This document shows, one piece after another, positions 1,320 through 54,992 of a DNA stretch of 62,499 nucleotides. The position numbers were made by a program, and so were the translations under genes. The stretch comes from an uncultured Candidatus Poseidoniales archaeon (lineage in GTDB: Archaea; Thermoplasmatota; Poseidoniia; Poseidoniales; Poseidoniaceae): NCBI GenBank assembly GCA_964637985.1, contig CAZWXR010000001.1:1-62499 (forward strand), in the 5' to 3' direction. Numbering within the stretch: position 1 is the stretch's first letter; each line of letters begins with the position of its first letter. The notes under the pieces are model-generated. The model ran no database searches. It saw only the letters and a list, made by a program, of their open reading frames with translations, and was not told the DNA's origin.

Positions 1320-1814
1320 TTAATTTTGTCTTTCGAGCCATTGGTCACCGTAATGAATCCATTGTTCCATCGTCCAACCTGCAGGAAGACCTCCTGGTGG
1401 AAGTGGTGGCCCTGCCTTTGCTTGTGACAATTGAGGAGTTGGAATCTGAGGGATTCCCTTTCCTGCCGGAGGAGGCATACCGCCAGGTAATGCTGCTGGA
1501 GGCATTCCTGCTGGTGGGAGACCTTTCGGCACTTGGAAGGCAGGTGGAGGCATAGAAGCGGGAAGCGAAGCCATGCCAGGCGGGAGATTTTTGGGCACGC
1601 TCGATGGAACAACGGGAGTATCCATTGATTGGAGAATTGCTTGAGCAATTTCGTCTTTACTTACCTCTGCACTTGCTGTTTTGTTGATTGCATGGTCAAT
1701 GTCAAGTGCTTCCTCTCGTCGTGTATCGAGATGGTCGGGGTGTCCGTGCATGTCCGGTAACCCAAGAGCCGAATCATCTGAAGTCAATTCTCCAGATTGC
1801 TTCATTCTACGGGC
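1320..1814 (-). other. predicted cytoplasmic tail module: acidic linker + Pro-rich region + terminal LPAGWTMEQWIHYGDQWL motif
   Basis: The last 164 aa after the TM helix contain a long P/G/A-rich stretch (PPGMASLPASMPPPAFQVPKGLPPAGMPPAALPGGMPPPAG...) and end in GWTMEQWIHYGDQWLERQN. It is homologous to the tail at 31917-32180. Confidence 0.7.
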
Positions 1815-4800
1815 CAAGATAACAACGACGCCAAGGAAAATTACAGCGATAGGAACGCTCACATACACTGGTAAATCTTGGAAGAATCCGCTATCACCAC
1901 CGGCTCCATCTGTGGTCAATTCGAGAGTCAATGTCATTATTTCATTCGATTGAGTTGTGAGATTGATGAGCAAATATCCTTTGGCGATAGACGCACCCTG
2001 CTTTGGAGAAACTGTCAATTCAAATTCTAATTCTTGTCCAATTGCTAAATTTTCGACTGAAGATTCTGATAATGATACAGTCCAATCCGTCCTTACCTCG
2101 TCATCTTTATCTACAACCACGAGTGATAAGTCTCCGAATAAAGGAACATTACCATCATTGCGTAGAATAATTTTTGTTGACTCTGAGTCATCTGCATTCA
2201 TGAGTTGGAACGGTTTATTTTCAGGTTGTTCTAAAGACAAATTCCCATACATCGAACTCAATACACCAACAGTTGTGTTCACGGAACTCATGGTTGTACG
2301 ACCCAAACTTGTTCCTGTGACAAAGACTTGCAAATTGAATGATTCATCGCCGATACTTGCTCCGGCTGGTGGCGAAATCCCAATTCTAACGGTACCAGAA
2401 TCCCTTGGTTCCAAGTAATTTATTGGGTTTGAAAAACCGATTGTCCAGCCATCCGGCGCGACGTTATTTGACCATTCCAAATTCAGAGGTGTATTTCCAA
2501 TATTCTTGACAGTGTACTCTCCAAATGTGTAACCGTCAGAAATTTTCGTCATGATTTTTCCACTTGTTGGGCCGTTTAAATCTAAGGCAAGTTCATCTTT
2601 GACGACCAGTTTCGTCGAATTGCTTCGGTAATTTGATGACGATTTCTCAGTTCGTATAGTGAAGGTGTTTTCATCACCTTCGTCAGCGGCCTCAGGAACG
2701 CCAAAAAGGAGCTGGACTACTTTTGTTTCGCCCGCTGCAATGTTGAGCGATAATTGTCGGGTATCAACTCGATCATTTTCCGACAACTGGGCAATCCATG
2801 ATTCAAATGCAGAAATAACCCTGACGGTGAGAGCAATATCGCGGTTGCCCAAATTTTCAACTGTCAAATTCATGTAAATAAATTGACCAGAATCAACGGC
2901 GATATCATCTTCTAAGGTCGAAGGGCCGAAGTATCCATCATCATCGCTTAACCTCACTTTGTAATCGTCGAATGGGTCAACAGTGACCTGAACAACTTCA
3001 GTGTGATTCATTGAAGCATCAGTCAGTGAAGTAACATAGCATGTCACGCTGTCAATGAATCCAGCGGTTGGCAACCCATTTGCTACCGGGGGGACGACGA
3101 TACGAATTGCCATTGGTAAGAACTCATGGAGGTCGAGAGGTTCGAAATCAAGCCGGGAAGAATTTGAATTTCCGAGCATAATCTGCCAACGGTTTTCTGA
3201 TTCGCATAGAACTGAATACTGTGCTGGTGAATTCCCGATATTTTTTACTGAAACTGAAAACATGACAGAATTTCCTGGTACTGCTCGAAGGTCACTTGTT
3301 CCCGCTGAGGCGATAAGCACATCGTGGAATGTAGGCACTTCAAGCACTACCCGTTGAGTATGTGCTACTGTTGGTTGGAATTCGTATCGCACAGAAATGT
3401 CAATGACATATGTTCCTGCACGGATGTATCTTGGCGACTCAGGGTCTGTAAAATCAGCATCTACATCAAGGAGTTCAAGATCGACAAAATAGGTGTCATT
3501 CTCAGTACCTTGTGCAGACATCAAAACATTATCTCCTTTCGAAAATGTTCGTTGCCACGCATCGATTGACGGCTCGAGCAAATCAGGACGTTCAGCATTT
3601 GGCATTTGAACCATTGAAGCCGATATGTCAACGGATTGATTTCCAGTCCCCTCGTGTAAGACGACAAGTGGCAAGGTCACCACAGCTCCATCAGTAACAT
3701 CGACAGTTATTTTGGAATTATTTTCTCGTTCACTTTGGGTCTGAGGAATTGTTCCATCATCATTTGCAATCAGCACACGAACGCCAAGGGCCATCACCTC
3801 AACATCGACATCGAAAACATTGTTGTTTGTGCCATTTGATTCATCATTGATTTCGTCCACCTGACCCATAAGATCAACCGATAAGCGAAGAGAATGAACA
3901 CCAGTTGTCGAAAACGAATGGTAAATCGTCATCGAATCAAGTCCACCAGGAGATAGAGAGGACCTGTTTGCCTGTAACAATGTTTGACCAGTTGTGAGGT
4001 CTTCGAATTTAATCATGTGCGTACCTGTTTCTGCCGTACCTTGATTACTATACGCAACTGTGATGGATATGACATCGTTTCGAAGTGGATTTGTCGAAGA
4101 CAGAACAACACTTCCGTCATATGTCACGAGGTCGGCGATGGCGATGGGCGATGCAATTGCACTCATCACAAGAGAGAATTTTTGTGTCATTCCACCCTTG
4201 TGTTCGACACGTAGTACCCAGTTATCTTGACCTGAAAGAACGCCGGGCTTAATTTTGATTCGTTCAACGTTGTTGAGTGAGTCAGCGGAGCCACCTGTTG
4301 TTGATACACCATTTTGGAACACGTTGCCAAGATAAACTTGCCCAGAAGGTCCTTCGAGAATTAAATCAAGGTCGTTGACAAGTCGTGATTGCGTTTGTGC
4401 AGTGTTCGAACTACCCGCCTCATCAGACCATGCTAAGGTGATGTCAATCCCTTCATTCATATCAATAATGAATGGATACGAAAGGGAAAAACCGGGACGA
4501 ATCGTCTGTTTATCATCATAATATTGGTCAAGAATTGTTGAGCCGGAAGTAGGCATGATGGATTGTTCGAGATTAATTTGTCCCCAGCCTTCGTTTTCGT
4601 TAGGAATATCCTGCGTTCCCAAATCTGTTGCCCCATTGATGAGCACAGCCTTCACCAATGAACCAGAAGGTGTGAAAATGCTTTGTTGTTCTCGGAGATA
4701 TTCGCGAACCAATGCACCAACACCTGATGCAACAGCAGTTGCTTGAGAGGTTCCCGACAATGTCATGTAAAGTGGAGCCCCATTCGAATGGAATCCAGTT

Positions 4801-6290
4801 CCACAAGAAGTACCTGAAACGATGCTCGATTCCTCTGGCCGACCGGAGCAAATATTCACTCCTGGGGCAACCAAATCAGGTTTGATGCGCCCGTCCAAGG
4901 TTGGGCCTTCACTCGAGAATGAAGCAACATCGCCCTCAGCAGCACTTCCGCCAGCACCGGTTGTAGAGGCACCAATAGAAATTACATTTTTGGCAGTGCC
5001 CGGTGATGTCACCTGTGAGGCTCCCTGACCACCTCGATCTCCAACTGAGAAAAAGGGAATCATTTCAGGATAATCGTTCATGAAAAGGTCAACACTACGG
5101 GCGTCAGCGGTGTACTGTCCGTAATTTCCATTGATTCCCCATGCGTTGACTGCAACTCTTGCTGTTGCCGTTTCTGCATCTTTGAGCATGTCGTAAATTG
5201 AACCTAATCGGCCGAAAACACCTGTGGGGTCATGCTCTAAGGCGTACATCACAAGTTGTGCTCCAGGGGCGACGCCCTTGACCGAGGAATCGTTGGTCCC
5301 GTCACCAAGCACCGTGAGAGCGATATGTGTACCATGGCCTGTGTTTTTATCGGCGGGCGAAGAATCAAGACCAAATTGAGTGTATATAGCAACCACACGC
5401 CCATCGATGTCAGGATGGTCACGGTCGAGTCCGGTGTCTGTGATTGCAATTGTTTCACCAGTCCCATCTAAGGTAAACGTGGCGTTGTTTATGACGCCTT
5501 GAACACCTGCTATGCTTACTGCATTGGCATTATGAACTTCGAGGTTGAAACCCGGCTCCGTCCATATGATTCGTCCATCGTATGCAATTCTCTTCAGCAC
5601 TTGGTGATAGGAGGTTGTCTCGGTTGAAAGTGTACAAAATGTGGTCCCGCACATGACTGCTGTAGCACCACTCGAAAGAAGGTCAACGACCAGCCCATTC
5701 ATTCCCGCATCTGAAACATCAGGTGCAGGAATAAAATTGAGGACCTCGAGAGAGGACGATTGAGTATCCAAAACATCTGGATGGAGCCTCCATTCTGGTT
5801 GCATTGAGCCAATCCACCGAACATTTTCATCGCTTGAAATGTCATCGACAAAGGTTGTCGACCCTTGTGGTGCTCGAATTAGCCAAACTTCATTTGATAT
5901 GAATTCTAGAGGTGTAAATTCATGCGTAACCTGCAATCGTTCAAGAATCTCACCATTTCGTTGATTGAGTTGAAGAAGATACATGCCCGTGATTTCTCCG
6001 TCATTTATTCTTGAAAATGTTGTCGCCGTTGGTTCGATTTGATGCATTGGGTCAAATTGAACGGAAGCCAACGAAATTAATCCATTCGGCTCAATGAAGG
6101 TAGTTTTCCCCTCAATTGGTTCTTGAAACAAGGTCCAAGGCTTCGCATCTTCGATCGAACGAGGAGCATTGTAAACATCGACTTCTTGTGAAATCTCTTC
6201 CGGATGTTCAAAAGAAATAGAAGCGTATGGCTGGAGGAGAAACAAAATCGAGAAGAACAACACTACGCCTCTCAAACGATGCATATGCAT
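1320..6290 (-). CDS. giant (1656 aa) membrane-tethered subtilisin-like S8 serine protease with CARDB-like repeats
   Basis: N-terminal signal peptide (VVLFFSILFLLQPYASI). S8 triad motifs are AITDTGLD (Asp about aa 285, codon at 5436-5438), HGTHIA and SGTSQATAVASG. Several V-x-N-x-G-N CARDB-like strands follow (VKNIGNSPAQY, VENLGNRDIAL, VKNIGNTPLNL, LRNDGNVPLFG). A single C-terminal TM helix (VPIAVIFLGVVVILA) precedes a 164-aa tail. Confidence 0.9.
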   Translation of the reverse strand: MHMHRLRGVVLFFSILFLLQPYASISFEHPEEISQEVDVYNAPRSIEDAKPWTLFQEPIEGKTTFIEPNGLISLASVQFDPMHQIEPTATTFSRINDGEITGMYLLQLNQRNGEILERLQVTHEFTPLEFISNEVWLIRAPQGSTTFVDDISSDENVRWIGSMQPEWRLHPDVLDTQSSSLEVLNFIPAPDVSDAGMNGLVVDLLSSGATAVMCGTTFCTLSTETTSYHQVLKRIAYDGRIIWTEPGFNLEVHNANAVSIAGVQGVINNATFTLDGTGETIAITDTGLDRDHPDIDGRVVAIYTQFGLDSSPADKNTGHGTHIALTVLGDGTNDSSVKGVAPGAQLVMYALEHDPTGVFGRLGSIYDMLKDAETATARVAVNAWGINGNYGQYTADARSVDLFMNDYPEMIPFFSVGDRGGQGASQVTSPGTAKNVISIGASTTGAGGSAAEGDVASFSSEGPTLDGRIKPDLVAPGVNICSGRPEESSIVSGTSCGTGFHSNGAPLYMTLSGTSQATAVASGVGALVREYLREQQSIFTPSGSLVKAVLINGATDLGTQDIPNENEGWGQINLEQSIMPTSGSTILDQYYDDKQTIRPGFSLSYPFIIDMNEGIDITLAWSDEAGSSNTAQTQSRLVNDLDLILEGPSGQVYLGNVFQNGVSTTGGSADSLNNVERIKIKPGVLSGQDNWVLRVEHKGGMTQKFSLVMSAIASPIAIADLVTYDGSVVLSSTNPLRNDVISITVAYSNQGTAETGTHMIKFEDLTTGQTLLQANRSSLSPGGLDSMTIYHSFSTTGVHSLRLSVDLMGQVDEINDESNGTNNNVFDVDVEVMALGVRVLIANDDGTIPQTQSERENNSKITVDVTDGAVVTLPLVVLHEGTGNQSVDISASMVQMPNAERPDLLEPSIDAWQRTFSKGDNVLMSAQGTENDTYFVDLELLDVDADFTDPESPRYIRAGTYVIDISVRYEFQPTVAHTQRVVLEVPTFHDVLIASAGTSDLRAVPGNSVMFSVSVKNIGNSPAQYSVLCESENRWQIMLGNSNSSRLDFEPLDLHEFLPMAIRIVVPPVANGLPTAGFIDSVTCYVTSLTDASMNHTEVVQVTVDPFDDYKVRLSDDDGYFGPSTLEDDIAVDSGQFIYMNLTVENLGNRDIALTVRVISAFESWIAQLSENDRVDTRQLSLNIAAGETKVVQLLFGVPEAADEGDENTFTIRTEKSSSNYRSNSTKLVVKDELALDLNGPTSGKIMTKISDGYTFGEYTVKNIGNTPLNLEWSNNVAPDGWTIGFSNPINYLEPRDSGTVRIGISPPAGASIGDESFNLQVFVTGTSLGRTTMSSVNTTVGVLSSMYGNLSLEQPENKPFQLMNADDSESTKIILRNDGNVPLFGDLSLVVVDKDDEVRTDWTVSLSESSVENLAIGQELEFELTVSPKQGASIAKGYLLINLTTQSNEIMTLTLELTTDGAGGDSGFFQDLPVYVSVPIAVIFLGVVVILARRMKQSGELTSDDSALGLPDMHGHPDHLDTRREEALDIDHAINKTASAEVSKDEIAQAILQSMDTPVVPSSVPKNLPPGMASLPASMPPPAFQVPKGLPPAGMPPAALPGGMPPPAGKGIPQIPTPQLSQAKAGPPLPPGGLPAGWTMEQWIHYGDQWLERQN

Positions 6291-30291: not shown

Positions 30292-30636
30292 ATGAGCGAC
30301 CAAGACGATGAGCAAGAATTGGTTGTTCAATTTCCTACAAAGGAAAAAAAACCTCTCATCCATAGAATGGTTTCGACGATCAAAACCATTTTCCATGAAA
30401 TCACATTTGGCGTAGGGACTTGGGGTGCCATGAGACCAATGTTTACTGCCCTGTTGGCCGGCGTGCCATTCCTTTTCCTCGGACAACACTTCAACAAAGA
30501 GCACGGCAAGGCAAGGGATTGGACTCTTTTGCAAATTCCGCTTGCACTCACCGTAGTCCTTTGGGTTGGACTTTGGCTTTTCTCCATATTTGATGCATGG
30601 AAAACGGCGACAGGTGTTGTTGCGAATTCAAATTAA
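30292..30636 (+). CDS. small membrane protein (114 aa, two TM helices)
   Basis: Acidic N-terminus followed by MFTALLAGVPFLFLG and IPLALTVVLWVGLWLFSIF. Preferred over the overlapping minus-strand ORFs, which lack any features. Confidence 0.5.
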   Translation: MSDQDDEQELVVQFPTKEKKPLIHRMVSTIKTIFHEITFGVGTWGAMRPMFTALLAGVPFLFLGQHFNKEHGKARDWTLLQIPLALTVVLWVGLWLFSIFDAWKTATGVVANSN

Positions 30637-31427
30637 GGCTGCCATAGTTGGTCGGTTGGTTTGATTTTCTCATTCTTCATATCGCTCAGGTCTGCAAGGT
30701 CATCCGAATCAAATTCGTTGGGCAAATCACCAGTAATGAAATTCATGAGTGAGGTCGATTCGATAGCCCAATACATGACTGAATCTTCGTTGTTTGAATG
30801 ACCTGGATGGCTTGAATCTTCATGAGGTCTTGGGGATTGGTAAACGAGATTGACCAAACCTAGAAGATGACCAACCTCGTGCACAACAACGCTGTTCTCA
30901 ACATCCTCAGCGGAAGGTCTTCCAAAGAAACCCTCTGCTTCCTCGATGCTGTCTTTGAAAATGGCGATTGTTGAACCATCCACAGCTACACCTAAAACAG
31001 AATCATCGACATATGACCCTGATGGGAAAATCAGTTGCCAGTACAATGTTGAAGTGCTATGTGGGTGTTCTTCTTTCAATTTCCAGCCCTGTTCCCTTAC
31101 ATCGTCTGCACTCCAAGAATCGATTGAGAATGTTGACTCGATATAATTGAATGTGATGCCTGATGGCTTATCACAAACCTCCATAATTCTGTCTTCAAGC
31201 ATGGTTATACTCGATGTCTCCGGCCGATAACCTGATTCGAATACAATCTCAAATTCGAGACTTTTATGCTGATCGGCACGTAAGCAGGCCATCGTTAAAG
31301 AACCTGGAACTCCATGATTTTCTATGTTAAGAACCTCTTTGATTGAATCCGACAGACAACCTGATGTATTCATTGAGACGATGAAGAGAGACATCAAAAC
31401 AGCGGTTGATAGCCTCTTCATAGACAA
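30633..31427 (-). CDS. secreted/lipoprotein-like HEXXH zinc metalloprotease (metzincin-like)
   Basis: Signal peptide ending in a possible lipobox (IVSMNTSGC). VVHEVGHLLGL zinc-binding motif with downstream His residues and a candidate Met-turn (DSVMY). Confidence 0.7.
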   Translation of the reverse strand: MSMKRLSTAVLMSLFIVSMNTSGCLSDSIKEVLNIENHGVPGSLTMACLRADQHKSLEFEIVFESGYRPETSSITMLEDRIMEVCDKPSGITFNYIESTFSIDSWSADDVREQGWKLKEEHPHSTSTLYWQLIFPSGSYVDDSVLGVAVDGSTIAIFKDSIEEAEGFFGRPSAEDVENSVVVHEVGHLLGLVNLVYQSPRPHEDSSHPGHSNNEDSVMYWAIESTSLMNFITGDLPNEFDSDDLADLSDMKNEKIKPTDQLWQP

Positions 31428-31457: not shown

Positions 31458-31904
31458 TTACCAATCATCGGGAATCTCCAAGGGTGAAAACAATTGGCCT
31501 GGACTTTGTACATTCGATAACTGCGTACGAATAACTTGTTCCCATTGCCGAAGCATCAATAGAGCACGGTCCAGTTCAATATTGATTTCAACAAGTGTTA
31601 CACGAATCAGCGTGTCGAGAATATCCATTCGTTGGGCGTCGGACATCTCCAATAACTTGTCGAGAGAAAATTGCTGAGGATTGTTGGTGGAGACTTCGCC
31701 AATTTCCCAAGGCTCTGTCAATTCATTTGGAAGTTGTTGATTGGATGATGAAGCGTATTCTTGAAGTGAAGAAAGCAATTGTTTAATGTGCTTTTGAAAA
31801 ACGAGAGAGACCTCAAATAACGGCATCTTGAGTTGTTGGAGGAGGTTAACAACCCGTTCTTGAAAAACCACCATTCCATCAATAGTGGACGTGTCATTGG
31901 TCAA
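31458..31904 (-). CDS. hypothetical helical cytoplasmic protein (148 aa)
   Basis: Starts 12 nt after the stop of the 1788-aa gene on the same strand. No TM or signal sequence. Ends LEIPDDW. Confidence 0.5.
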   Translation of the reverse strand: MTNDTSTIDGMVVFQERVVNLLQQLKMPLFEVSLVFQKHIKQLLSSLQEYASSSNQQLPNELTEPWEIGEVSTNNPQQFSLDKLLEMSDAQRMDILDTLIRVTLVEINIELDRALLMLRQWEQVIRTQLSNVQSPGQLFSPLEIPDDW

Positions 31905-31916
31905 AGGATGACCTCA

Positions 31917-32180
31917 CTACTTTTTCGAATTGAGGTATTGCCAACCATATGCATTCCATTGCTCCATTGTCCACCCTTCAGGAAGACCTGTTGGTGGAAC
32001 AGGTGGTGCAGCAGGCATCGGTGCAGGTACTACAGGAGCGGTTTGTGGAGGAGGAATGGTAGGAGGTTGTGGTGCATTCTCGATTTCTGGGACGATCTTG
32101 TCGTTGTCTTCCATCGCATCAACAACATCAGCTGTTTGGTCAGATTCATCTTCGAAGGATTCGGCAATGAGTCTTCGACG
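31917..32180 (-). other. predicted cytoplasmic tail module: acidic linker + polyproline + terminal LPEGWTMEQWNAYGWQYL motif
   Basis: ESFEDESDQTADVVDAMEDND, then PQPPTIPPPQTAPVVPAPMPAAPPVPPTG, then LPEGWTMEQWNAYGWQYLNSKK followed by the stop. The DNA at 31956-31999 is 38/44 identical to 1359-1402 by manual alignment. Confidence 0.7.
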
Positions 32181-35100
32181 CATCACCATTGACCACACGC
32201 CAAATGAAATCGACCCCAATGCAATAATGAAGAGAACGATGCTAAATGTCCCTTCTGATGCTTGTTGTGAGAGTGCATCCCCATCACGAATTGTTTGTTC
32301 TTTGACAATGAGTGGGTCAACGGTTACTCGATCCATCTCGACACCATCGACAAGAACGAGAACACGATACTGGATGCTTTCACCAGCAGCAACATCAGCA
32401 ATATCGGATAACGTTGCGATGAAATCTTGATTGGTTGTCACATCGAGAGAAATCACATCGGTTTCAGACCAAAAGCCACCTTCAATCAGGCGTTGTAATG
32501 AAAATTCTATTTGCCCTGAACCTCCAAGATTCGTTCCCTTGACAATCATACTCGATAATTGGCCTTGAGTCGGGCTTGGATTCGACCATTTTAGTGATGT
32601 ACTTTCGGCTTGAAGGTCGACCTTTGGTCCTATTAGAGCCAACGGCCATGACGCAAATGGTTCAATCATCGAATTACCACTTGTATCGAATGGATTTCCT
32701 GCTTCGTCCGACCCCGATATCCAAACATCAACCATGTATGATTGAAGTAATGTGGTCGCACCAGCGTCCGTCAAATCAAGATATCCTGTCCAAAAGAATT
32801 GGTCACCGAACGGTGTGATTTCAGGTAATAGAACGCTACCTCTCGAAATCTCTGCTTCCCCTGCTTTTACTCTATAATGAAGTACTGCAGGTTTATCAAA
32901 GTCAAATCCATTATCATCCCTCGTCTCAAGTTGAACAAGCAAATTGTCTGCATTTCCGATGGAGAGTGGCATATTCGGGTCAACACCGCCAAGTGAGATA
33001 CTGCCAATCGTCGGTCTGTCACTGTCGACTGCTAGGCGAACTCTTGGAACAAATGGTGATTGGTCTTCTGCTAAACCAGGTAAGTCGTCCAACTTCAATC
33101 GTAGGTCGAGGTGCCCTGAACGCACAGACGGTACGAGCAAATCAAGAGAAAACTCCCCATCTAATCTTGTCGAGGTTTCCCAAAGGAATTCAAAGTCTCC
33201 AAATGTAACATCAAAGGCACCTGCTGGAGCAGGAGTTTCATCTTCCGAGAACAGAACTCGACCTGAAACTCGTAGTGCTTGCCCTGCACCAATGATGGTC
33301 TCAAAGTTCTCGTCATTGTAGTGATTCAAACCATTTCGAAGTTCAACTGCACGGATGTGGCCGCTTTCTGTATCGAATCTGAAGTCATTATCAAGGCTCC
33401 ACCAATCTTCACCCAATCCGTATTCAAGTTCGTAACATGGTGTATCTTCACCTACATTGCATGGTCTGTCTGTAATGAGTATTTTTGGAATGAAGTGTGA
33501 TTCACCGTTTGTGTCAAATATTTCGGGGAAGGTCCATGTCAATTGGAATCTTGCTTGAATCAAAATTTTACTCTCGTTTACGGGGTCAATTTCGACTGTT
33601 GAGTAAATGTTTGATACTGCAATATGGGTTGAACCGGACGCCATAACCGCTCGTGGTTGACCGTTTTCATCTTCTTCCATGCTGATGAAAATTGAAGATT
33701 CGTCATCTTCCAAATCCCCACTTAGAGAGAGTTGAATGTATTGAATATCTCTCCAAGTATTGCGATCACTCACAACGAGTTGTGCTGTGTAAAGGATGCC
33801 GGGATGGAGAGGCTGGTAATCATCATGTCCTACGATTGTTGAATTGCCAATATCAACACTAGGTTGGAACTCTTGACGAATCACATATGTTACGAGATCT
33901 GCATCCCAGTCTGGAACCGTCTCACCAGGCCTATATCCACATGATACACTACTCTGCGGACATACAGGGCCACCACCCATTGCCACCTGATTGTTTTGAC
34001 CATCTTTTCCAGAGACATAGAAGGAAACCTTCTGTCCATGCAACAACATTGAATCATCAAGCATGCCCTCAAAAATATTCAAACCGCCCACTTGCGTATC
34101 TGGTGAACCTATACTCATAAGTTCATATTCGTCTGCATTTGGCAAGCCATCAAAGTTGTAGTCAGTGCATCCGATTGCATCGCTTGCCCTACAACCAATC
34201 CAATAGTGGAGGGATATCGTATTTGGTGGGTCAACGGAGTCTTGAATCGTAATTGATATGGGTTTGCCACCACCTGTTGCTGCTGCGTGTTGCTCTGAAC
34301 GATCTATAGGAGTAGCTTGGATGACAAGAGGCGAATTTCCATCGAGAACGAGACGTATTGAATTATAGGAGGGATTAGAAAAAGTCGAACCATTGACGAG
34401 GTCAACCGCTTGAACATAGAATACCATTCCACCGGGGTGAGATTCTGTTGGTGATGTAAAAGTGAAATTATATTCACCAAAGGCAGGATTAACCTCTTCG
34501 AGGAGGACCACAGGTTCCCCAACGGGGTCGCCATCATACGTCACGTTTTGACCAATAATGCGAATAGAAAAGGACCCTGCTTCCGGCATAAGTTGAGAAC
34601 TTTCAAAGTAAATACCTCCGACAAAAGTCAAGTTGTATCCTCCACGCACCCAATCAAAAGAGTACAATTCTCGGCCTGTTTCCTCAAAGACTCGTAATCC
34701 ATCAAGTTGGATGTCGTTCTCAATCACAAGGTCCATATCGGAGGTTTGCCATCCATTCACCGCAATACCTAGACTATCTTCGACTGTAACAACTGCTTCG
34801 GCATCAGACTCATCGTTCCAACTCCAGTTGACTTTCGTTGGTATGCGAATCACTAATTCACCTTTCGAATTGATAGAAGAAGTACAATTTGTTGTATCAA
34901 ATTGGATAATACCTCCGGCATTCGATATTGTGCTGCACGAATTACCCAATTGCCACATGAATGAAGGTGTTGGTCCATGTGAGTTAAGAATGCCAATTGT
35001 TGCTTTCGTGACCCTATCAACATCATCCCCGTGAGCTACTGTTGCGATTAAATTTCGATAGATGCCATCGGGTGCTGTAAGACCCCCTTCGAATTCAACG

Positions 35101-37283
35101 CTCACAGCACGAGTTTGCATTTTGTAAGCGACATCAATATTCGAAATTTTCACTCGACCTGAAGTAGCGGCTTTTATCGCAATTGGAACATTTACTGTAC
35201 CCTCTCCGTTTTCAGGTATGAAATCGTTGAATGCATCGATGAGCGTTGGTGCATCTCGCACCACGGTACCGACAGCGGATTCATCATTTGCAACGATTGA
35301 AGATTCATTGAGGAATAACAACGAACGCCAGTCCCATGTCCCGTCGTTTCCGACATCGATTTCTGGTCTATCCGGATATCCCTCTTCAAAATTCAATGTA
35401 AATTTGTCAATCTTTGGAGTTATTGTTGCATCATTGGTGGTGAAGAATATAGCATACTTGAGTGTGTTTCCCGCACCCTCAGTTGAGAAACTTGATTCTT
35501 GGTTATTCGGAGCTTGTACCCAATTTGTGCCATTATCATTTGAAACCATCACTGAAATTGAGGTGCCTGCAGGTTCATCTGCAACCCATACTGGACGAAC
35601 TTTGCCAACTTTTGTACCTGTATTGAAATGTGGACTTGTCCAGTCTCCAGATGGCTGGTATTCAGTTGCATACTCAAGTTCAACCCACCATGAAACTGCG
35701 GTTGAACCAATAAGTTGTGCCTTCCAAACAAGTTCTTTACCGGGGTAAGCAAAATGTATTGTTTCATTGCTCACAACAGGCTCCCAATGGGTTCCATTGT
35801 CCGCAGAGATCCAATAGTCAACCCGGTCGCCTATTGATGACGCTGACCAGTATGCCTTCATGTTGGCTGAAAGAATGTCATCCCCGCTATTCACGACAGG
35901 CCCGTACCACGTGGTCGTTCCTGGAGCAGGTGTCGTCTTGTACGTCCAACCCGTTCCAAATTCTCTGTAATACAATGTCGAGCCCGACCATGTTGAATAG
36001 CCTGAGTCAACGGTAACGAATCGCTTTCCATCAAATTGCAGACCGTAACCAAGTGGAGATATCTGGCGAACACCTTGTTGTGGTACGAGAGAAGATGATT
36101 GACCTGAAATTGACCACGCTTCTAATTGGTCTCTATCGTTGTAATACTGGTCTTTTTGGCATCGCATAAAGAATGTTGATTGGTTCACTTCGAGACCGCG
36201 AACAAGTTGTCCCGTTCTTCCACAGTCCCAACTTGAACCTGATGATGAAGAGAAGGTATACATTGTATCACCACGCTGATATTGACCAGTTCCGTCGCCG
36301 CTGAATGTGTATGGAACAATGGATCGAGCAGAGTTGTGAACAATCCACACGACATCTCTTGAATGGTCGTAAGCAATGGCAACATAGTCTTGCAATTGGG
36401 GTGAAACATCGTAGGAATCTATGCATGTCCAAACATCATCTCTAGAGACATCCATTTCGACGACCCTATGGTACATGACTGGAGCTGTTGAACCATAGGG
36501 GTATTTGTAGCCCGATAAAATACCAAATAATCGTTCATCATCGGTAAGAGTCCAATCTCTAAACCCATACATTCCATAGTAACTGCTGGAATGTTTTTGT
36601 GGCAAGGTACACTGTGCTTTATCGAGTGTGATGGTCGATTCGATGGTTGCATTATTTGGATACAACCTCTTGACAACATTGTGGAATGACGACGAGGACC
36701 ATGTTGACAAAAACAACCAATCATGATGCTTGAGAATTGCTCCTTGTCCTTGAGCCATGAATGTCGTGGCAGTCTTACTCACTTGTTGAGAGAACCTCGA
36801 TTCGGTTGCGTTGGATGTATGGGGCTGTCTCAACGAAAAAGAGCCGTTGTCCAACCAAGCATCCGAGTTTGGGTCCTCTACTGCATCGTTCCCGTGAGGG
36901 TCAAACAAAATCGTTGTATTGCTCATTGCAAGTGTGAGGTCATCGCTTCTGTCATCAATAAGTGATTCGAGTCCCTTTACCCAATCTTTGCGTTCGTCCG
37001 TCACGATTTGCGACCAACCTGTGGCGGATGCTCCTGATAATGTCAAACTAACGTCAGTAACCAAAGCACCTTTGGGTATTTGGATTTCAGCACCAACATC
37101 AGGATTCCCTCCCTGGTAGAGTGCAATGTACTCTGATGAGCCATCTTTGAAATCATAGATGTGTCGAGCCACGCCTGCTGCTTGAACATCATCAACAACG
37201 TTGGAAAAAACAGGCGACCATGGCGTGAATATCATAATAAAAATGATGAAAATTGCCGCTCGGCTCGACCGAATTGAGTCCAT
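31917..37283 (-). CDS. giant (1788 aa) type I membrane-anchored surface protein, ectodomain of unknown family
   Basis: Signal peptide AAIFIIFIMIFTPWSPVFS. A long beta-rich ectodomain with many N-x-S/T sequons. C-terminal TM helix FSIVLFIIALGSISFGVWSMVM followed by RRR and an 87-aa tail. GAGGGG lies about 8 nt upstream of the ATG at 37283. Confidence 0.85.
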   Translation of the reverse strand: MDSIRSSRAAIFIIFIMIFTPWSPVFSNVVDDVQAAGVARHIYDFKDGSSEYIALYQGGNPDVGAEIQIPKGALVTDVSLTLSGASATGWSQIVTDERKDWVKGLESLIDDRSDDLTLAMSNTTILFDPHGNDAVEDPNSDAWLDNGSFSLRQPHTSNATESRFSQQVSKTATTFMAQGQGAILKHHDWLFLSTWSSSSFHNVVKRLYPNNATIESTITLDKAQCTLPQKHSSSYYGMYGFRDWTLTDDERLFGILSGYKYPYGSTAPVMYHRVVEMDVSRDDVWTCIDSYDVSPQLQDYVAIAYDHSRDVVWIVHNSARSIVPYTFSGDGTGQYQRGDTMYTFSSSSGSSWDCGRTGQLVRGLEVNQSTFFMRCQKDQYYNDRDQLEAWSISGQSSSLVPQQGVRQISPLGYGLQFDGKRFVTVDSGYSTWSGSTLYYREFGTGWTYKTTPAPGTTTWYGPVVNSGDDILSANMKAYWSASSIGDRVDYWISADNGTHWEPVVSNETIHFAYPGKELVWKAQLIGSTAVSWWVELEYATEYQPSGDWTSPHFNTGTKVGKVRPVWVADEPAGTSISVMVSNDNGTNWVQAPNNQESSFSTEGAGNTLKYAIFFTTNDATITPKIDKFTLNFEEGYPDRPEIDVGNDGTWDWRSLLFLNESSIVANDESAVGTVVRDAPTLIDAFNDFIPENGEGTVNVPIAIKAATSGRVKISNIDVAYKMQTRAVSVEFEGGLTAPDGIYRNLIATVAHGDDVDRVTKATIGILNSHGPTPSFMWQLGNSCSTISNAGGIIQFDTTNCTSSINSKGELVIRIPTKVNWSWNDESDAEAVVTVEDSLGIAVNGWQTSDMDLVIENDIQLDGLRVFEETGRELYSFDWVRGGYNLTFVGGIYFESSQLMPEAGSFSIRIIGQNVTYDGDPVGEPVVLLEEVNPAFGEYNFTFTSPTESHPGGMVFYVQAVDLVNGSTFSNPSYNSIRLVLDGNSPLVIQATPIDRSEQHAAATGGGKPISITIQDSVDPPNTISLHYWIGCRASDAIGCTDYNFDGLPNADEYELMSIGSPDTQVGGLNIFEGMLDDSMLLHGQKVSFYVSGKDGQNNQVAMGGGPVCPQSSVSCGYRPGETVPDWDADLVTYVIRQEFQPSVDIGNSTIVGHDDYQPLHPGILYTAQLVVSDRNTWRDIQYIQLSLSGDLEDDESSIFISMEEDENGQPRAVMASGSTHIAVSNIYSTVEIDPVNESKILIQARFQLTWTFPEIFDTNGESHFIPKILITDRPCNVGEDTPCYELEYGLGEDWWSLDNDFRFDTESGHIRAVELRNGLNHYNDENFETIIGAGQALRVSGRVLFSEDETPAPAGAFDVTFGDFEFLWETSTRLDGEFSLDLLVPSVRSGHLDLRLKLDDLPGLAEDQSPFVPRVRLAVDSDRPTIGSISLGGVDPNMPLSIGNADNLLVQLETRDDNGFDFDKPAVLHYRVKAGEAEISRGSVLLPEITPFGDQFFWTGYLDLTDAGATTLLQSYMVDVWISGSDEAGNPFDTSGNSMIEPFASWPLALIGPKVDLQAESTSLKWSNPSPTQGQLSSMIVKGTNLGGSGQIEFSLQRLIEGGFWSETDVISLDVTTNQDFIATLSDIADVAAGESIQYRVLVLVDGVEMDRVTVDPLIVKEQTIRDGDALSQQASEGTFSIVLFIIALGSISFGVWSMVMRRRLIAESFEDESDQTADVVDAMEDNDKIVPEIENAPQPPTIPPPQTAPVVPAPMPAAPPVPPTGLPEGWTMEQWNAYGWQYLNSKK

Positions 37284-37361: not shown

Positions 37362-40300
37362 TCAAGTTTCTCGTGAATCGTAACGAATTGGTGAGGATTG
37401 CCCTCGAACACCATCTTCTTCATCGTCCCGTACCTCAAACCAATCAACGAGCCAATCACCATCGGTGTCCCAGTTCATTGGACTACTGCCCTCAGCGAGA
37501 TGGTCATCGTCAAAATCAAGTATGTACCATCCAAATTCGTGCTCGCCAACATTTCGTTCGGGAGCGGTATTTGGTGAGAACTGATAATATATCTCCCATG
37601 TATCTGTCCTATTACCTGCAAGAAGTATTTCGTCATCAGAAGCATTGAGTTCAAAGAAATTTACATCATGATCGTTAACGATGTACCCATATTGGAAATC
37701 TGGCCCCGCAAATTTATCCATCTTGAGATAGTTCAACACAAGTTCATTCGACTGGCCAATACCAAGCACTGCTTTTCTCAATTGCCACCATTCGGTGACT
37801 ACGTTTCCGTCGACAGTCAAACCAGATAATCTCACAGCATTAGGTGAGGAGTATTCCTGAAGCGTAAACGCAAAGAATTCTTGGAAATTTGTATACGGTT
37901 CGTATGTACAACCAGCCCCAGTACAGTCCCAGTTTCCATCCTGGTCTGGATCTTGATTCGCATCGTTCGAGTCTGCAGGGTCGAGTGTAAACCATGTGTA
38001 CTCCAAATCTGGCCTTTGAAGTTCTCCAGTCTGTGAATTAAGCGACAATGGCAGGCAAGAAGAAGTCGATGTGGTGCAAGCACCTCCTGTGCCAGGGTCA
38101 ATCCATTGAACTTGAATTTCTAAGAAGGAACTGAAATTGTCATTTGATTCATTCCAACCTAATTTGTATTCGTACCAATCCGGCAACATATCTCCATCAG
38201 TATCATTATCGCTTGGATTGCTTCCATACTTGAAGACTTCACGACCGTCTGAATAATTGTAATCTCGGACGTGTGAAATAACAACGCCGTTTTCTACAGT
38301 TGTGATGAATGTGACGCTGTCTCCATCGGAATCATTGAGGTCTGGTCTCGTGTCATTCATCCATTCCATCAGATTTGTGAAAGGAAGGTCCCCGATTCCC
38401 TGTTGAATTTGTTGTGAAGAAGGCGTGAACACCCGATTGTTCCAAACACCTTGAGTCGCTGGTTGGTCAAAGGTGGTTCGCCCATACCAACCATCATGGT
38501 CACCATCATAATTGATGTCGAATGGATTAAGTGGGTTGGAAGACCAGTGGTTTATTGTCGTCGTATCATTCATTCCAAACATGGCGTAGCAATATTCCCA
38601 TCCATCCGGAATGCCATCACTGTCTGAGTCAGGGTGTGTTGGGTCAGCAACACCTCTCAATGAGCGATTGAAATTGCCGGGGTCGAGTGAATTGATTTTT
38701 TCCATTCGCTCGAGTGAATCTGGCCCTTTCGCAATAAAGTCTTGATAGAGAGCAAGTTGAGCTTGCAAAATCGAATATCCGAGTTCTTCCTGATAGGCGA
38801 GCATAGCATCCTCACCAAAATCGATGATGCCGAGTTCGATGGGCACTGTTGCCCTCATGTCGAATTTACCCCAAGTCCTCGATTCCCACTCGCGTAAGTT
38901 GGAAAACCGTTCGTCAAGAGAAATATCTCCGTCACCGTTGCAATCATAACTATCATCGTCAGAATCAAGGTCCACATCCCCATCAATGAGAGGATTCATA
39001 CTCCATCTGTTTTCATCCAAATCCCAAGATGTGAACCAGTATTCGAATCCATCGTACATTCCGTCACCATCGGTATCGCTAGATGTTGGGTCGGTCATCC
39101 CCTGTAGAACTGAGATGAATGCGTTCGGAGGCTCACCAGATTGCCATGCATTGAAATCATCGAGCAGGCGTTTTCCACGAGTATTCTTTGAGATCAGCAT
39201 GTTGAAAATTCGTTGAGCTTTTTCAGTCGGCTGTTGAAGGTCTCCATCGATGTGAAGGAGAGGGGCATCGCTCGGATGTTCGATTCCATTGTCTGGCTGC
39301 ATTGTCGCAAGTGCAAACTCTTGTTTATCGATTAGACCGTCCTCATCCCCATCGAAGTTCCCATCGTCAGGCACGAGGGGGTTAAGTGTCCAAACTTCAG
39401 CTGATGAATTCCATGCCGTGAAGAGCAACTCTAAACCATCGAGCATACCGTCACCATCAGTGTCGATGTTGTTTGGGTCCGTTGTTCGACCCGATAAGTT
39501 ACGAATGTCATCATCGATAAAACTACCAAATGAGGCAGATGTTGGAATACCCGGCCATTGTTGTAAGGCGTACGCTGTTCCAACGGTTGTTACAAACCAT
39601 TGTGGTGAACTCCTGTTGTTTTGAATCTCGGAGAAGTTTGGATCAATCGAATTATACTCCTCCCAATTTGTCATTCCATCATCATCAGCATCTTCCCAGC
39701 GATCTTTCGAATCGAGTGGATTTAACGTCCAACCATCTTCAAGTAGATTCCATCGAGCAAACCAAATTTCCCACCCGTCAGGCATGCCATCTGTATCGGA
39801 ATCTGCATCCCATGGATTTGCAGCTCCAACGCTGTAGGTTGTTTGACTGTTGTACAATTCACTAAATGCTCTGTCTGCAAATGTGTCTTCAGGTTCGCCG
39901 AAGTCGTAGATATTGTCAAACAAGTTCGTTTCAAATTCGATAGGAAACTCTTCCCCGTCAAATGTACCATTATTCACAAACAAATCACTTCGGAGATGGT
40001 ACTCAAGATAATTGACAAATTGTTCATTCAATGTCAGCACGCCATCATGGTTAATGTCGTATCCATCACCATCGGGGTTGCTAAGCACATCGGTTGAGTT
40101 GAGTGGATTGACGCCGTTGTATTCTGGCGACCATGTACAACGACCATCAGATTCCCAACCATCTGGAAGTGAATCTCCGTCTGAATCGATAGAATTCGGA
40201 TCTGCTACACTCCAATTTGCTACTGCTTCGGGAACTTCGCCGAAATTCTCTATCAATTCACCCTCTAGGCCTGCAAGCCTTACAAGTGACCATTGATATT

Positions 40301-50469: not shown

Positions 50470-50718
50470 TTACTGCTGTGGTTGTTGATAGTTGGGGTCA
50501 GGAACCCATTGATTGTTAGCAGCATCCCAAAGCCATCCGGGATGTTGAGAGACTTGTTGAGGCTGTTGTTCTTGCTGAACCTGTGGTTCTTGTGCAGTCC
50601 CTGCGGGAGGAATTTCTACAGCATCGTATTGTTTCTTCTTTGCCCAAGCATACGGATCTTCTTCGACTTCTTGCCCACCATTCTGTAAGACCTCCTCGTC
50701 AAATTCTTCTTCAAATTC
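50470..50718 (-). other. predicted cytoplasmic tail: acidic linker + P/Q-rich region + terminal Trp-rich motif HPGWLWDAANNQWVPDPNY
   Basis: The layout after the TM helix matches the tails at 1320-1814 and 31917-32180 (EFEEEFDEEV..., then PPAGTAQEPQVQQEQQPQQ, then GWLWDAANNQWVPDPNYQQPQQ and the stop). The terminal motif differs. Confidence 0.6.
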
Positions 50719-54852: not shown

Positions 54853-54992
54853 ACTTACACCTAACTCTGCCATACCAATAGAGAATATAATACTGTGCCT
54901 CATTTGTCAAATTAAGAATATCAAAATGAGTTTAAAATATCATTATAATTGCAGGAAAGCAGTAATAACTTTCCAAGAAAACGCCACATGTA

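What the first reader, a model, noticed from the sequence alone, without database searches (positions are those of the whole stretch)
31917..32180. Portable cytoplasmic tail (acidic linker + polyproline + terminal LPxGWTMEQWxxYGxQ[WY]L) shared by two otherwise unrelated giant surface proteins
Seen directly. The 1656-aa subtilase (tail at 1320-1814) ends ...GPPLPPGGLPAGWTMEQWIHYGDQWLERQN. The 1788-aa protein ends ...PPVPPTGLPEGWTMEQWNAYGWQYLNSKK. In both proteins the motif is the extreme C-terminus. It is preceded by a Pro-rich stretch, an acidic linker and the single C-terminal TM helix with flanking Arg residues, so the predicted location is cytoplasmic. The DNA encoding PP(G/T)GLP(A/E)GWTMEQW is 38/44 identical (1359-1402 versus 31956-31999), yet I see no similarity between the ectodomains. 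LPxGW resembles the opening strand of a WW domain, but the rest does not, and I do not recognise this as a named family. Inference: this is a modular intracellular docking or sorting signal. It would couple giant extracellular adhesins or proteases to a cytoplasmic partner such as a cytoskeleton, a sorting/secretion machine or a signalling protein, loosely like integrin tails.
Basis: partly seen in the sequence, partly recalled or inferred. Interest (0 to 1): 0.8.

Follow-up and report, generated by a model that had tools for sequence, protein, structure and literature searches.

The report
Shared cytoplasmic tail of archaeal surface proteins
Two unrelated giant surface proteins in this window end in the same ~30-residue intracellular tail, which is an undescribed module on at least ten families of membrane-anchored surface proteins across the abundant marine archaea Poseidoniales (Marine Group II); what it binds is unknown.

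Summary
ORF A (1320-6290, minus strand, S8 subtilase) and ORF B (31917-37283, minus strand, no Pfam domain) share only their last ~25 residues: PP[LV]PPxGLPxGWTMEQWxxYGxQ[WY]L.

The motif is widespread, so it is not a local duplication.
- A 34-column profile finds 642 protein clusters, and the match is almost always at the C-terminus.
117 are real tails; every one whose record title names a lineage is Poseidoniales (Poseidoniaceae or Thalassarchaeaceae), the rest are generically named archaeal MAGs.
- The tail sits on at least 10 ectodomain groups, including subtilase, PKD/CARDB, TSP3, an arylsulfotransferase-like propeller and RCC1 repeats.

The architecture is constant: N-terminal signal-like segment, ectodomain, one TM helix, a basic cluster, an acidic Pro-rich linker of 20-133 aa, then the core. 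This places the tail in the cytoplasm. Synonymous sites are scrambled, so selection acts on the protein.

Pfam, NCBIfam, PDB sequences, Foldseek and the literature give no assignment. Resemblance to the WW domain stops after LPxGW. AlphaFold2 predicts an extended Pro segment followed by an amphipathic aromatic helix (pLDDT 88).

Best reading: a portable cytoplasmic docking minidomain on a flexible leash. The partner is unidentified and the function is inferred, not shown.

The parts
1320..6290 (-). ORF A, 1656 aa, membrane-anchored S8 subtilase that carries the tail
   Evidence: ORF. Peptidase_S8 E = 2.6e-46, CARDB, NPCBM_assoc. Orthologues in 17 loci form group 2. Adenylate kinase and GAPDH flank it here and in its orthologues.
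6210..6266 (-). A: N-terminal signal-like hydrophobic segment (VVLFFSILFLLQPYASISF)
   Evidence: Kyte-Doolittle 1.94.
1812..1868 (-). A: single C-terminal TM helix (VYVSVPIAVIFLGVVVILA), followed by RRMK
   Evidence: Kyte-Doolittle 2.78.
1323..1811 (-). A: cytoplasmic tail of 163 aa. It has a juxtamembrane region conserved within the family, then G[LM]PP repeats, then the shared core.
1335..1409 (-). A: shared core PPLPPGGLPAGWTMEQWIHYGDQWL
31917..37283 (-). ORF B, 1788 aa, surface protein with no Pfam or NCBIfam domain that carries the tail
   Evidence: Orthologues are in L102 and L079.
37203..37259 (-). B: N-terminal signal-like hydrophobic segment (AAIFIIFIMIFTPWSPVFS)
32184..32240 (-). B: single C-terminal TM helix (IVLFIIALGSISFGVWSMV), followed by MRRR
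   Evidence: Kyte-Doolittle 2.28.
31920..32183 (-). B: cytoplasmic tail of 88 aa. It has an acidic linker with the family motif DESDQTA..K[IM]VPEI, then a Pro-rich stretch, then the shared core.
31932..32006 (-). B: shared core PPVPPTGLPEGWTMEQWNAYGWQYL
31923..31967 (-). B: predicted amphipathic aromatic alpha-helix MEQWNAYGWQYLNSK. Thr immediately before it is the likely N-cap.
   Evidence: AF2 helix at residues 19-33 of the 34-mer, pLDDT 93 in that block. Coordinates.

Best explanation
The tail is a lineage-specific, portable cytoplasmic minidomain of Poseidoniales type-I surface proteins.

Shown:
- A ~25-30 residue core, (G/A)PP[LVI]PxxG[LI]PxGW[TS]x[ED]QWx[HYW]YGxx[WY]L, lies 2-10 residues from the C-terminus. 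In one subfamily it lies 30-100 residues from it.
- The core hangs on a 20-133 aa acidic, Pro-rich, poorly conserved leash. The leash follows a single TM helix and a basic cluster.
- The core is attached to at least 10 ectodomain families.
- It is conserved at the protein level across both Poseidoniales families.

Inferred structure: the Pro segment is extended, and the helix starts at a classical capping box with a hydrophobic staple (W-T-x-E-Q-W). The helix presents one invariant aromatic face (M3, W6, Y9, G10, W/Y13, L14) and one variable polar face. The extended Pro segment may pack on that face, as in PP-fold or Trp-cage miniproteins.

Inferred function: the minidomain is a protein-protein docking unit. 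Through it, many different surface proteases and adhesins engage one common cytoplasmic or submembrane partner, which could be a scaffold, a cytoskeletal element or a sorting/positioning factor. The acidic leash keeps the unit off the anionic membrane and lets it reach some nanometres into the cytoplasm. The partner is not encoded next to the tail-bearing genes.
For: Distribution:
- 74 hits, E down to 1.2e-14, all named ones from Poseidoniaceae, Thermoplasmatota or Euryarchaeota MAGs.
- 642 clusters at E <= 1e-3 and 374 at E <= 1e-10, with C-terminal matches.
- 117 of 120 genomic stretches are true tails in Poseidoniales MAGs, including CM001443.1.

Portability: 10 ectodomain groups with different Pfam content.

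Topology:
- A TM helix lies upstream in 114 of 120 copies.
- The first 8 residues after the TM hold 268 K/R against 112 D/E. The rest of the linker holds 213 K/R against 1077 D/E, and 13.6% Pro.
- 52 of 54 full-length proteins have an N-terminal hydrophobic segment.
- P0210 carries two copies after an N-terminal anchor followed by RRRR.

Protein-level selection:
- All synonymous codons are used at the invariant P, G, L and T positions.
- Identity is 0.81 at codon positions 1+2 against 0.41 at position 3.
- In hits that did not depend on exact words, the only common variants are T->S, M->I/E and E->D.

Structure: AF2 with 30 sequences gives pLDDT 87.9, pTM 0.56, a helix at residues 19-33, and pLDDT >90 over the Pro/turn part.

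Against membrane binding: the helix region has net charge -1 to -3 in most copies, and the summed Wimley-White interfacial energy is unfavourable.

Several families carry further conserved linear motifs in the same tail, which suggests a busy cytoplasmic interaction surface. These are ANSMYGGxxxxFQQP, LLDDLDL-COOH, and the juxtamembrane block of the subtilases.
Against: - No partner was found. No neighbouring gene family is shared across ectodomain groups, and the genes next to A and B are housekeeping.
- Foldseek found no analogue.
- Most invariant residues can be explained by folding alone, which leaves the binding surface undefined.
- Other giant anchored proteins in the same window lack the core (ORFs D, E and G). 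It is therefore not needed for anchoring or export as such.
- The organisms are uncultured, so nothing here is experimental.
Confidence: 0.5

Rival explanations
1. Self-association module. The aromatic face of the helix mediates homo- or heterotypic pairing of tails, as PP-fold peptides dimerise. This would cluster the different surface enzymes and adhesins into patches or oligomers without any separate partner.
For: The same invariant aromatic face occurs in all paralogues. No dedicated partner gene lies nearby. One natural protein has two copies in tandem (P0210). The predicted minidomain resembles PP-fold peptides in secondary structure.
Against: AF2 of the natural tandem gave two helices but low confidence (pLDDT 52.6, pTM 0.31), so there is no support for packing. 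That run used a single sequence and is therefore inconclusive. Nothing else bears on it.
Confidence: 0.2
2. Transient recognition signal for a sorting, processing or turnover machine, rather than a stable tether. The tail would be read once, for example for localisation, for shedding of the ectodomain, or for degradation. It would be a cytoplasmic counterpart of the C-terminal sorting tags of prokaryotic surface proteins.
For: It sits at the extreme C-terminus of many unrelated surface proteins, which is the hallmark of sorting tags. It is confined to one lineage.
Against: Known archaeal and bacterial tags (PGF-CTERM, PEP-CTERM, LPXTG) consist of a motif, a TM helix and a short basic end. Here 88-163 aa follow the TM, and NCBIfam tag models do not hit. 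The residues after the core vary in length and sequence, so a free C-terminus is not being read. The ectodomain has already been exported by the time the tail is made.
Confidence: 0.15
3. Interfacial membrane-binding amphipathic helix, or a mechanical stopper. The Trp/Tyr-rich helix would lie back on the inner leaflet and stabilise a single-pass anchor that carries a very large ectodomain.
For: The helix is amphipathic, with W, W, Y, W/Y, M and L on one face. Trp and Tyr favour membrane interfaces (established knowledge).
Against: Net charge of the helix region is -1 to -3 in 91 of 120 copies, with no flanking K/R. The summed Wimley-White interfacial energy is about +2 kcal/mol for the consensus. 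The long acidic leash would be repelled by anionic lipids. ORF E (2045 aa) is anchored with a 12-aa tail. The invariant E, Q and G, and the invariant Pro segment, are not explained.
Confidence: 0.1
4. Recent local duplication or gene conversion between two genes of this genome, with no functional meaning.
For: 38/44 nt identity between the two copies.
Against: Half of the six differences are synonymous, and the identity follows from single-codon W and M plus the amino-acid constraint. The tail is present in orthologues of both genes and in at least 8 other families across Poseidoniaceae and Thalassarchaeaceae. Synonymous sites are saturated.
Confidence: 0.01
5. A degenerate or truncated WW domain.
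For: LPxGW matches the first WW strand. The best PDB sequence hit is the Itch WW domain. The spacing from W to G-x-x-Y equals that of Pin1 (my recollection of the Pin1 sequence).
Against: The PDB hit covers 9 residues at E = 0.71. hhalign against a WW alignment aligns only 9 columns at 50% probability. Pfam WW does not hit at E <= 10. There is no second Trp-x-x-Pro, and the protein ends where strand 3 would be. AF2 predicts a helix, not strands.
Confidence: 0.03

Closest known systems
WW domain (Pfam PF00397)
   Same: It opens with the LPxGW motif, has about the same size, is rich in aromatic residues, and is associated with Pro-rich sequence.
   Different: Similarity ends after 9 residues. 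There is no third strand and no second W-x-x-P. The remainder is predicted helical. There is no HMM hit. It is not a member.
PP-fold (pancreatic polypeptide/NPY/PYY) and Trp-cage miniproteins
   Same: A ~30-residue unit made of a Pro-rich extended segment, a turn and an amphipathic helix with Tyr/Trp on one face. AF2 is confident over both parts.
   Different: There is no sequence homology (no Pfam hit) and no Foldseek hit. Tertiary packing could not be checked. Those are secreted animal hormones or designed peptides, not membrane-protein tails. This is a structural analogy only.
Archaeal and bacterial C-terminal sorting tags (PGF-CTERM/archaeosortase A, PEP-CTERM/exosortase, LPXTG/sortase)
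   Same: A short conserved C-terminal element shared by many otherwise unrelated surface proteins of one lineage.
   Different: In those tags the motif precedes the TM helix on the outside, the protein ends a few basic residues after the TM, and the tag is cleaved. Here the motif lies 50-160 residues beyond the TM, on the cytoplasmic side. NCBIfam models do not match.
Cytoplasmic tails of eukaryotic adhesion receptors (integrin beta NPxY-talin, cadherin-catenin), and the Pro-rich or EAGR-box cytoplasmic regions of Mycoplasma terminal-organelle adhesins
   Same: Type-I topology, with a short conserved cytoplasmic element at the end of large adhesive ectodomains. The mycoplasmas are wall-less cells.
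   Different: There is no sequence relationship and no known partner here. One tail is shared by proteases and adhesins of at least 10 families. This comparison rests on my own knowledge and is an analogy only.

Membership tests
WW domain (PF00397) | Match to the family HMM or profile over the whole ~30-35 residue domain | tested here: not met
   No Pfam hit at E <= 10. hhalign against 9 WW sequences written from memory aligns 9 columns at 50% probability. The best PDB hit, Itch WW, has E = 0.71 over 9 residues.
WW domain (PF00397) | Two signature Trp residues 20-22 residues apart, the second followed by x-x-Pro | tested here: not met
   The Trp residues are at +1, +6 and (+13). The protein ends 16-24 residues after the first Trp, with no W-x-x-P.
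WW domain (PF00397) | Three-stranded antiparallel beta-sheet | tested here: not met
   AF2 predicts an alpha-helix at residues 19-33 and no strands, pLDDT 87.9.
PGF-CTERM / archaeosortase-type sorting signal | Signature motif immediately before a C-terminal TM helix, with the protein ending in a short basic cluster | tested here: not met
   The conserved motif lies 20-133 residues (median 63) beyond the TM helix, measured from the end of the TM to the start of the 14-residue Pro segment. The whole tail is 88 aa in B and 163 aa in A.
PGF-CTERM / archaeosortase-type sorting signal | Match to NCBIfam/TIGRFAM sorting-signal models | tested here: not met
   The NCBIfam scan of A and B at E <= 0.1 returns no C-terminal sorting-signal model.
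PGF-CTERM / archaeosortase-type sorting signal | Co-occurrence with a dedicated archaeosortase gene, and cleavage of the tag | not tested
PP-fold miniprotein (pancreatic polypeptide family, PF00159) | Sequence homology to the hormone family | tested here: not met
   No Pfam hit at E <= 10. The PDB sequence search returns no NPY, PP or PYY entry.
PP-fold miniprotein (pancreatic polypeptide family, PF00159) | N-terminal polyproline-II segment, a turn, then an amphipathic alpha-helix | tested here: inconclusive
   AF2 gives a non-helical but confident Pro segment followed by a helix. PPII geometry itself was not measured.
PP-fold miniprotein (pancreatic polypeptide family, PF00159) | Pro residues interdigitate with aromatic residues of the helix (tertiary contact) | not testable with these tools
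   Model coordinates and PAE are not returned. Foldseek against the PDB found nothing for the 34-mer.

The most novel reading that the evidence does not exclude
Poseidoniales have an order-wide coupling system between the outside and inside of the cell. In it, one folded PPII-helix minidomain on an acidic leash links at least ten families of giant ectoproteins (proteases, adhesins, propellers) to a single, still unknown submembrane scaffold or cytoskeletal element. Further tail signals take part in the same network: LLDDLDL-COOH, ANSMYGG...FQQP, and the Trp-rich HPGWLWD...NQWVPDPNY tail of ORF D. This would be a prokaryotic, independently evolved analogue of adhesion-receptor tails, in one of the most abundant archaeal groups of the ocean.
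Probability: 0.25. Interest if true: 0.85.

Novelty: new variant of a known kind. Interest (0 to 1): 0.66.

Why it matters
Marine Group II archaea are among the most abundant planktonic archaea. They are uncultured, and they are thought to live by degrading proteins and polymers with large cell-surface enzymes. A single, almost invariant cytoplasmic module on most of their large anchored surface proteins implies an unknown piece of cell biology: a shared intracellular partner, or a shared organising principle for the cell surface.

The finding gives a concrete handle for three things:
- a 30-residue peptide that can be synthesised and used as bait;
- a sequence signature for recognising the surface proteome of these organisms in metagenomes and metaproteomes;
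- a new domain family for Pfam or NCBIfam.

If the module tethers ectoproteins to a scaffold, it would be the first such system described in archaea.

Tried and rejected
1. Known-domain assignment gave nothing useful.
   - Pfam at E <= 10 on the tails.
   - NCBIfam.
   - PDB sequence profile search.
   - Foldseek against the PDB.

2. WW-domain idea. I noticed that the spacing LPxGW-8 aa-GxxY equals that of Pin1. However, hhalign aligns only 9 columns and AF2 gives a helix. Rejected.

3. Partner by gene neighbourhood.
   - I clustered 641 ORFs from 120 loci. Every recurrent neighbour family belongs to one ectodomain group only.
   - The window neighbours are adenylate kinase, GAPDH, DnaJ, a GT2 glycosyltransferase and a pyroglutamyl peptidase-NUDIX protein.

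4. Viral mimicry. A pattern scan of IMG/VR gave 6 matches, all chance matches without the flanking motif.

5. Self-association, using a natural tandem (the last 90 aa of P0210) and pTM as a proxy. The single-sequence AF2 run had low confidence (pLDDT 52.6, pTM 0.31), so it is inconclusive.

6. Soluble cytosolic carriers of the tail. Among representative hits of 140 aa or more, those without a TM helix are fragments that begin inside the linker. The exception is P0210: the hydropathy screen found no TM helix in it, and I read its N-terminus as a membrane anchor by eye.

7. Literature. The string 'GWTMEQW' has 0 hits. 'Poseidoniales' + 'cytoplasmic tail' has 0 hits. Other searches returned nothing relevant. 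PMC9258230 lists 199 Poseidoniales-specific families but does not mention the tail.

Full report
**1. The observation**

ORF A (1320-6290, minus strand, 1656 aa) and ORF B (31917-37283, minus strand, 1788 aa) end in ...GPPLPPGGLPAGWTMEQWIHYGDQWLERQN and ...PPVPPTGLPEGWTMEQWNAYGWQYLNSKK respectively.
Three of the six differences are synonymous.
- A six-frame scan finds only these two copies in the window.
- BLASTP of A against B gives a single significant segment, the last 23 residues (E = 5e-5). The ectodomains alone give nothing below E = 0.39.
- A is a Peptidase_S8 subtilase with CARDB and NPCBM_assoc modules. B has no Pfam or NCBIfam domain.

**2. Topology**

Both proteins have an N-terminal signal-like hydrophobic segment and one strong C-terminal TM helix.
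- In A the helix is nt 1812-1868. In B it is nt 32184-32240.
- Each helix is followed by RR/RRR, and then by an acidic, Pro-rich tail of 163 aa (A) or 88 aa (B).

The finding's interval is B's tail. This is a type-I arrangement, so the tail is cytoplasmic.

**3. The motif is a widespread family**

*Word-indexed search.* A search with the two tails returned 74 proteins, with E down to 1.2e-14. All carry the motif. The only source names are Candidatus Poseidoniaceae, Thermoplasmatota and Euryarchaeota MAGs.

*Profile search.* A 34-column profile was searched with HMMER against 1.84 billion representatives.
- It gave 642 clusters at E <= 1e-3 and 374 at E <= 1e-10.
- The match was at or near the C-terminus in nearly all.
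- The full-length members are 1099-1621 aa.

*Genome scan.* The degenerate DNA pattern for GWTMEQW was scanned over one genome per GTDB species.
- 117 are true tails with the full flanking motif. Every one whose record title names a lineage is Poseidoniales, of both families Poseidoniaceae and Thalassarchaeaceae; many others carry only generic MAG names (Methanobacteriota, Euryarchaeota, Thermoplasmatota archaeon). They include the original MG-II genome CM001443.1.
- 3 are chance matches in bacteria that lack the rest of the motif.
- IMG/VR viral contigs hold only chance matches.

**4. Anatomy across 120 copies**

*Core.* The consensus is P-x-(A/G)-G-P-P-L-P-x-x-G-L-P-x-G-W-T-M-E-Q-W-x-(H/Y/W)-Y-G-x-x-(W/Y)-L.
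- The columns GWTMEQW are fixed by the way these copies were found.
- In the profile hits that did not require exact words, 188 of 214 have GWTMEQW. The variants are conservative: GWSMEQW 10, GWTMDQW 4, GWTIEQW 4, GWTEEQW 3.
- The flanking P(-10), P(-9), L(-8), P(-7), G(-4), L(-3), P(-2), Y(+9), G(+10), W/Y(+13) and L(+14) are independent of the search and are 80-100% conserved.

*Position.* The first residue of the GWTMEQW motif lies 16-24 residues from the stop. In one subfamily it lies exactly 50 residues from the stop, and the protein then ends in LLDDLDL/F.

*Linker.*
- A TM helix lies upstream in 114 of 120 copies. The other copies are cut off by locus ends.
- The linker is 20-133 aa long, median 63.
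- The first 8 residues after the TM hold 268 K/R against 112 D/E.
- The rest of the linker holds 213 K/R against 1077 D/E, and is 13.6% Pro.

*N-terminus.* 52 of 54 full-length proteins have an N-terminal hydrophobic segment.

*An exception that fits.* One protein (P0210) has what I read as an N-terminal anchor followed by RRRR, although the hydropathy screen scored no TM helix in it, then a long acidic region with two copies of the motif. This again fits a cytoplasmic location.

**5. Portability**

After removing the last 200 residues, BLASTP clustering gives 10 ectodomain groups. Their Pfam content differs:
- S8 subtilase (A's group);
- PKD/CARDB;
- TSP3;
- an arylsulfotransferase-like propeller;
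- RCC1 repeats with Ephrin_rec_like;
- Ig_VWA7/CARDB;
- several groups with no domain, including B's group.

Each group has its own tail flavour, and often its own extra conserved linker motif.
- The subtilases have a juxtamembrane block followed by G[LM]PP repeats.
- Groups 0 and 1 have LPxxDxxANSMYGGxxxxFQQP.
- B's family has DESDQTA..K[IM]VPEI.

The tail is therefore old in each family and was not recently swapped between them.

**6. Level of selection**

At the invariant Pro, Gly, Thr and Leu positions, all synonymous codons are used. Pairwise identity in the 75-nt core is 0.81 at codon positions 1+2 and 0.41 at position 3. The constraint acts on the protein. The 38/44 identity in the window follows from single-codon Trp and Met plus that constraint.

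**7. Comparison with known families**

- Pfam-A at E <= 10 gives nothing on the tails.
- NCBIfam gives nothing on the tail.
- Foldseek against the PDB gives nothing.
- The best PDB sequence hit is the Itch WW domain, but only over GLPEGWxM, at E = 0.71.
- hhalign against a WW alignment, written from memory, aligns 9 columns at 50% probability.
- Full-text searches found no description.

**8. Structure**

AlphaFold2 on the 34-mer with 30 homologous tails gives mean pLDDT 87.9 and pTM 0.56. It predicts a helix from Met(+3) to the penultimate residues. The Pro/turn part is non-regular but confident, with block means of 93.

The following is my reading of the sequence, based on established helix-capping rules.
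- W-T-x-E-Q-W is a capping box with a hydrophobic staple: N' = W, N-cap = T/S, N4 = W.
- This explains why T->S is the main tolerated change.
- On a helical wheel, M3, W6, Y9, G10, W/Y13 and L14 fall within a ~140 degree arc.
- The variable positions 7, 11, 12, 15 and 16 lie on the opposite face.
- An extended Pro segment preceding such a helix recalls the PP-fold and the Trp-cage.

I could not check contacts, because coordinates are not returned.

**9. Mechanism**

*Shown.* The tail is a portable, cytoplasmic, protein-level-conserved terminal module on a flexible acidic leash, and it is known so far only from Poseidoniales.

*Inferred (confidence about 0.5).* It docks many different surface proteins to one shared cytoplasmic or submembrane protein.

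*Rival: self-association.* This is not excluded. The only test was AF2 on a natural tandem, which was inconclusive.

*Rival: membrane-interface binding.* This is disfavoured for three reasons.
- The helix region has net negative charge in most copies.
- The Wimley-White interfacial energy is unfavourable.
- The leash is acidic.

*Rival: cleaved sorting tag.* This is disfavoured by the geometry, since the motif lies far beyond the TM on the inside, and by the lack of NCBIfam matches. Cleavage itself was not tested.

*Partner by neighbourhood.* No partner emerges from gene neighbourhood.

**10. Verdict**

The 'modular' and 'intracellular' parts of the interpretation are supported. The 'docking/sorting' part remains an inference.

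This is an undescribed domain family. In concept it is a new variant of the shared C-terminal elements of prokaryotic surface proteins, but placed on the cytoplasmic side.

Noticed in passing
window 50473-50730 (-), the tail of ORF D (50470-54903): ORF D (Beta_helix/Big_7 surface protein) has a different conserved cytoplasmic tail. After the TM comes FFIEFEE, an acidic run, EEDPYAWAKAKQ, an A/P/Q-rich spacer, and then SQHPGWLWDxxxNQWVPDPNYQPPxQ. The last element looks like a Trp-zipper or WW-like hairpin. There are 38 database hits with this tail, all short fragments. One (P0250) carries it after a ferredoxin-like PF13370 region, which suggests it is also portable and cytoplasmic. Whether this Trp-rich element binds the PPLP segment of the GWTMEQW tails is pure speculation.
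   Followed up: partly
loci L044, L048, L060, L074, L081, L083, L113, L114, L119 (group 3); window 11946-14453 (+), ORF G: The PKD/CARDB subfamily continues 30-100 residues beyond the GWTMEQW core and ends in [LV]LDDLD[LFI]-COOH. Window ORF G (835 aa, TM helix plus a ~150-aa tail, no GWTMEQW core) ends in ...LPEMIDLDEL-COOH. This may be a second acidic-hydrophobic terminal docking motif.
   Followed up: partly
loci of ectodomain groups 0 and 1 (e.g. L016, L054, L062, L093): A further conserved linear motif, LPxxDxxANSMYGG[AST]xx[IL]F[QE]QP, lies 32-95 residues upstream of the GW core. It occurs in two large families without Pfam domains (27 genuine copies among the 120 tails; a 28th regex hit, in L030, lies inside the TM helix).
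   Followed up: partly
protein P0210 (from the representative search): A 297-aa protein with what looks like an N-terminal membrane anchor followed by RRRR (the hydropathy screen scored no TM helix), then a long acidic region and two copies of the motif (PPNWTDEQWAYYGESWL and GLPPGWTEEQWHHYGHIWM). It has no ectodomain, so it might be a dedicated cytoplasmic-face scaffold or competitor. Single-sequence AF2 gave both copies as helices but with low confidence.
   Followed up: partly
window 1323-1811 (-), the tail of ORF A, and its orthologues: The subtilase family tail contains a ~60-residue juxtamembrane block conserved across Poseidoniales (ARRMKxSGE..LVxP..ERRxxALD..SGxVSxEEIxxAL.QS). It is followed by a variable number of G[LM]PP[AS] repeats, which are absent from one sub-branch (the ...WWEQN.. 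tails).
   Followed up: partly
window 37362-43103 (-), ORF C: A 1913-aa protein with many DSDxDG[MIL]PDGWE repeats of thrombospondin type 3 kind (weak TSP3_bac hit). It has an N-terminal signal-like segment but no C-terminal TM helix or tail. It lies directly upstream of B on the same strand.
   Followed up: no
window 56256-62393 (-), ORF E: A 2045-aa protein (CarboxypepD_reg domain) anchored by a C-terminal TM helix with only a 12-residue basic tail. No N-terminal hydrophobic segment was found from the listed GTG start, so the true start or a frameshift may lie near the window end.
   Followed up: no
window 31458-31904, 30633-31427 (-) and 30292-30636 (+): The three small genes downstream of B (148 aa with no family, 264 aa with a weak Matrixin-like HExxH hit, 114 aa with no family) are syntenic with B orthologues in L102 and L079. 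They are not found near other tail-bearing genes.
   Followed up: yes
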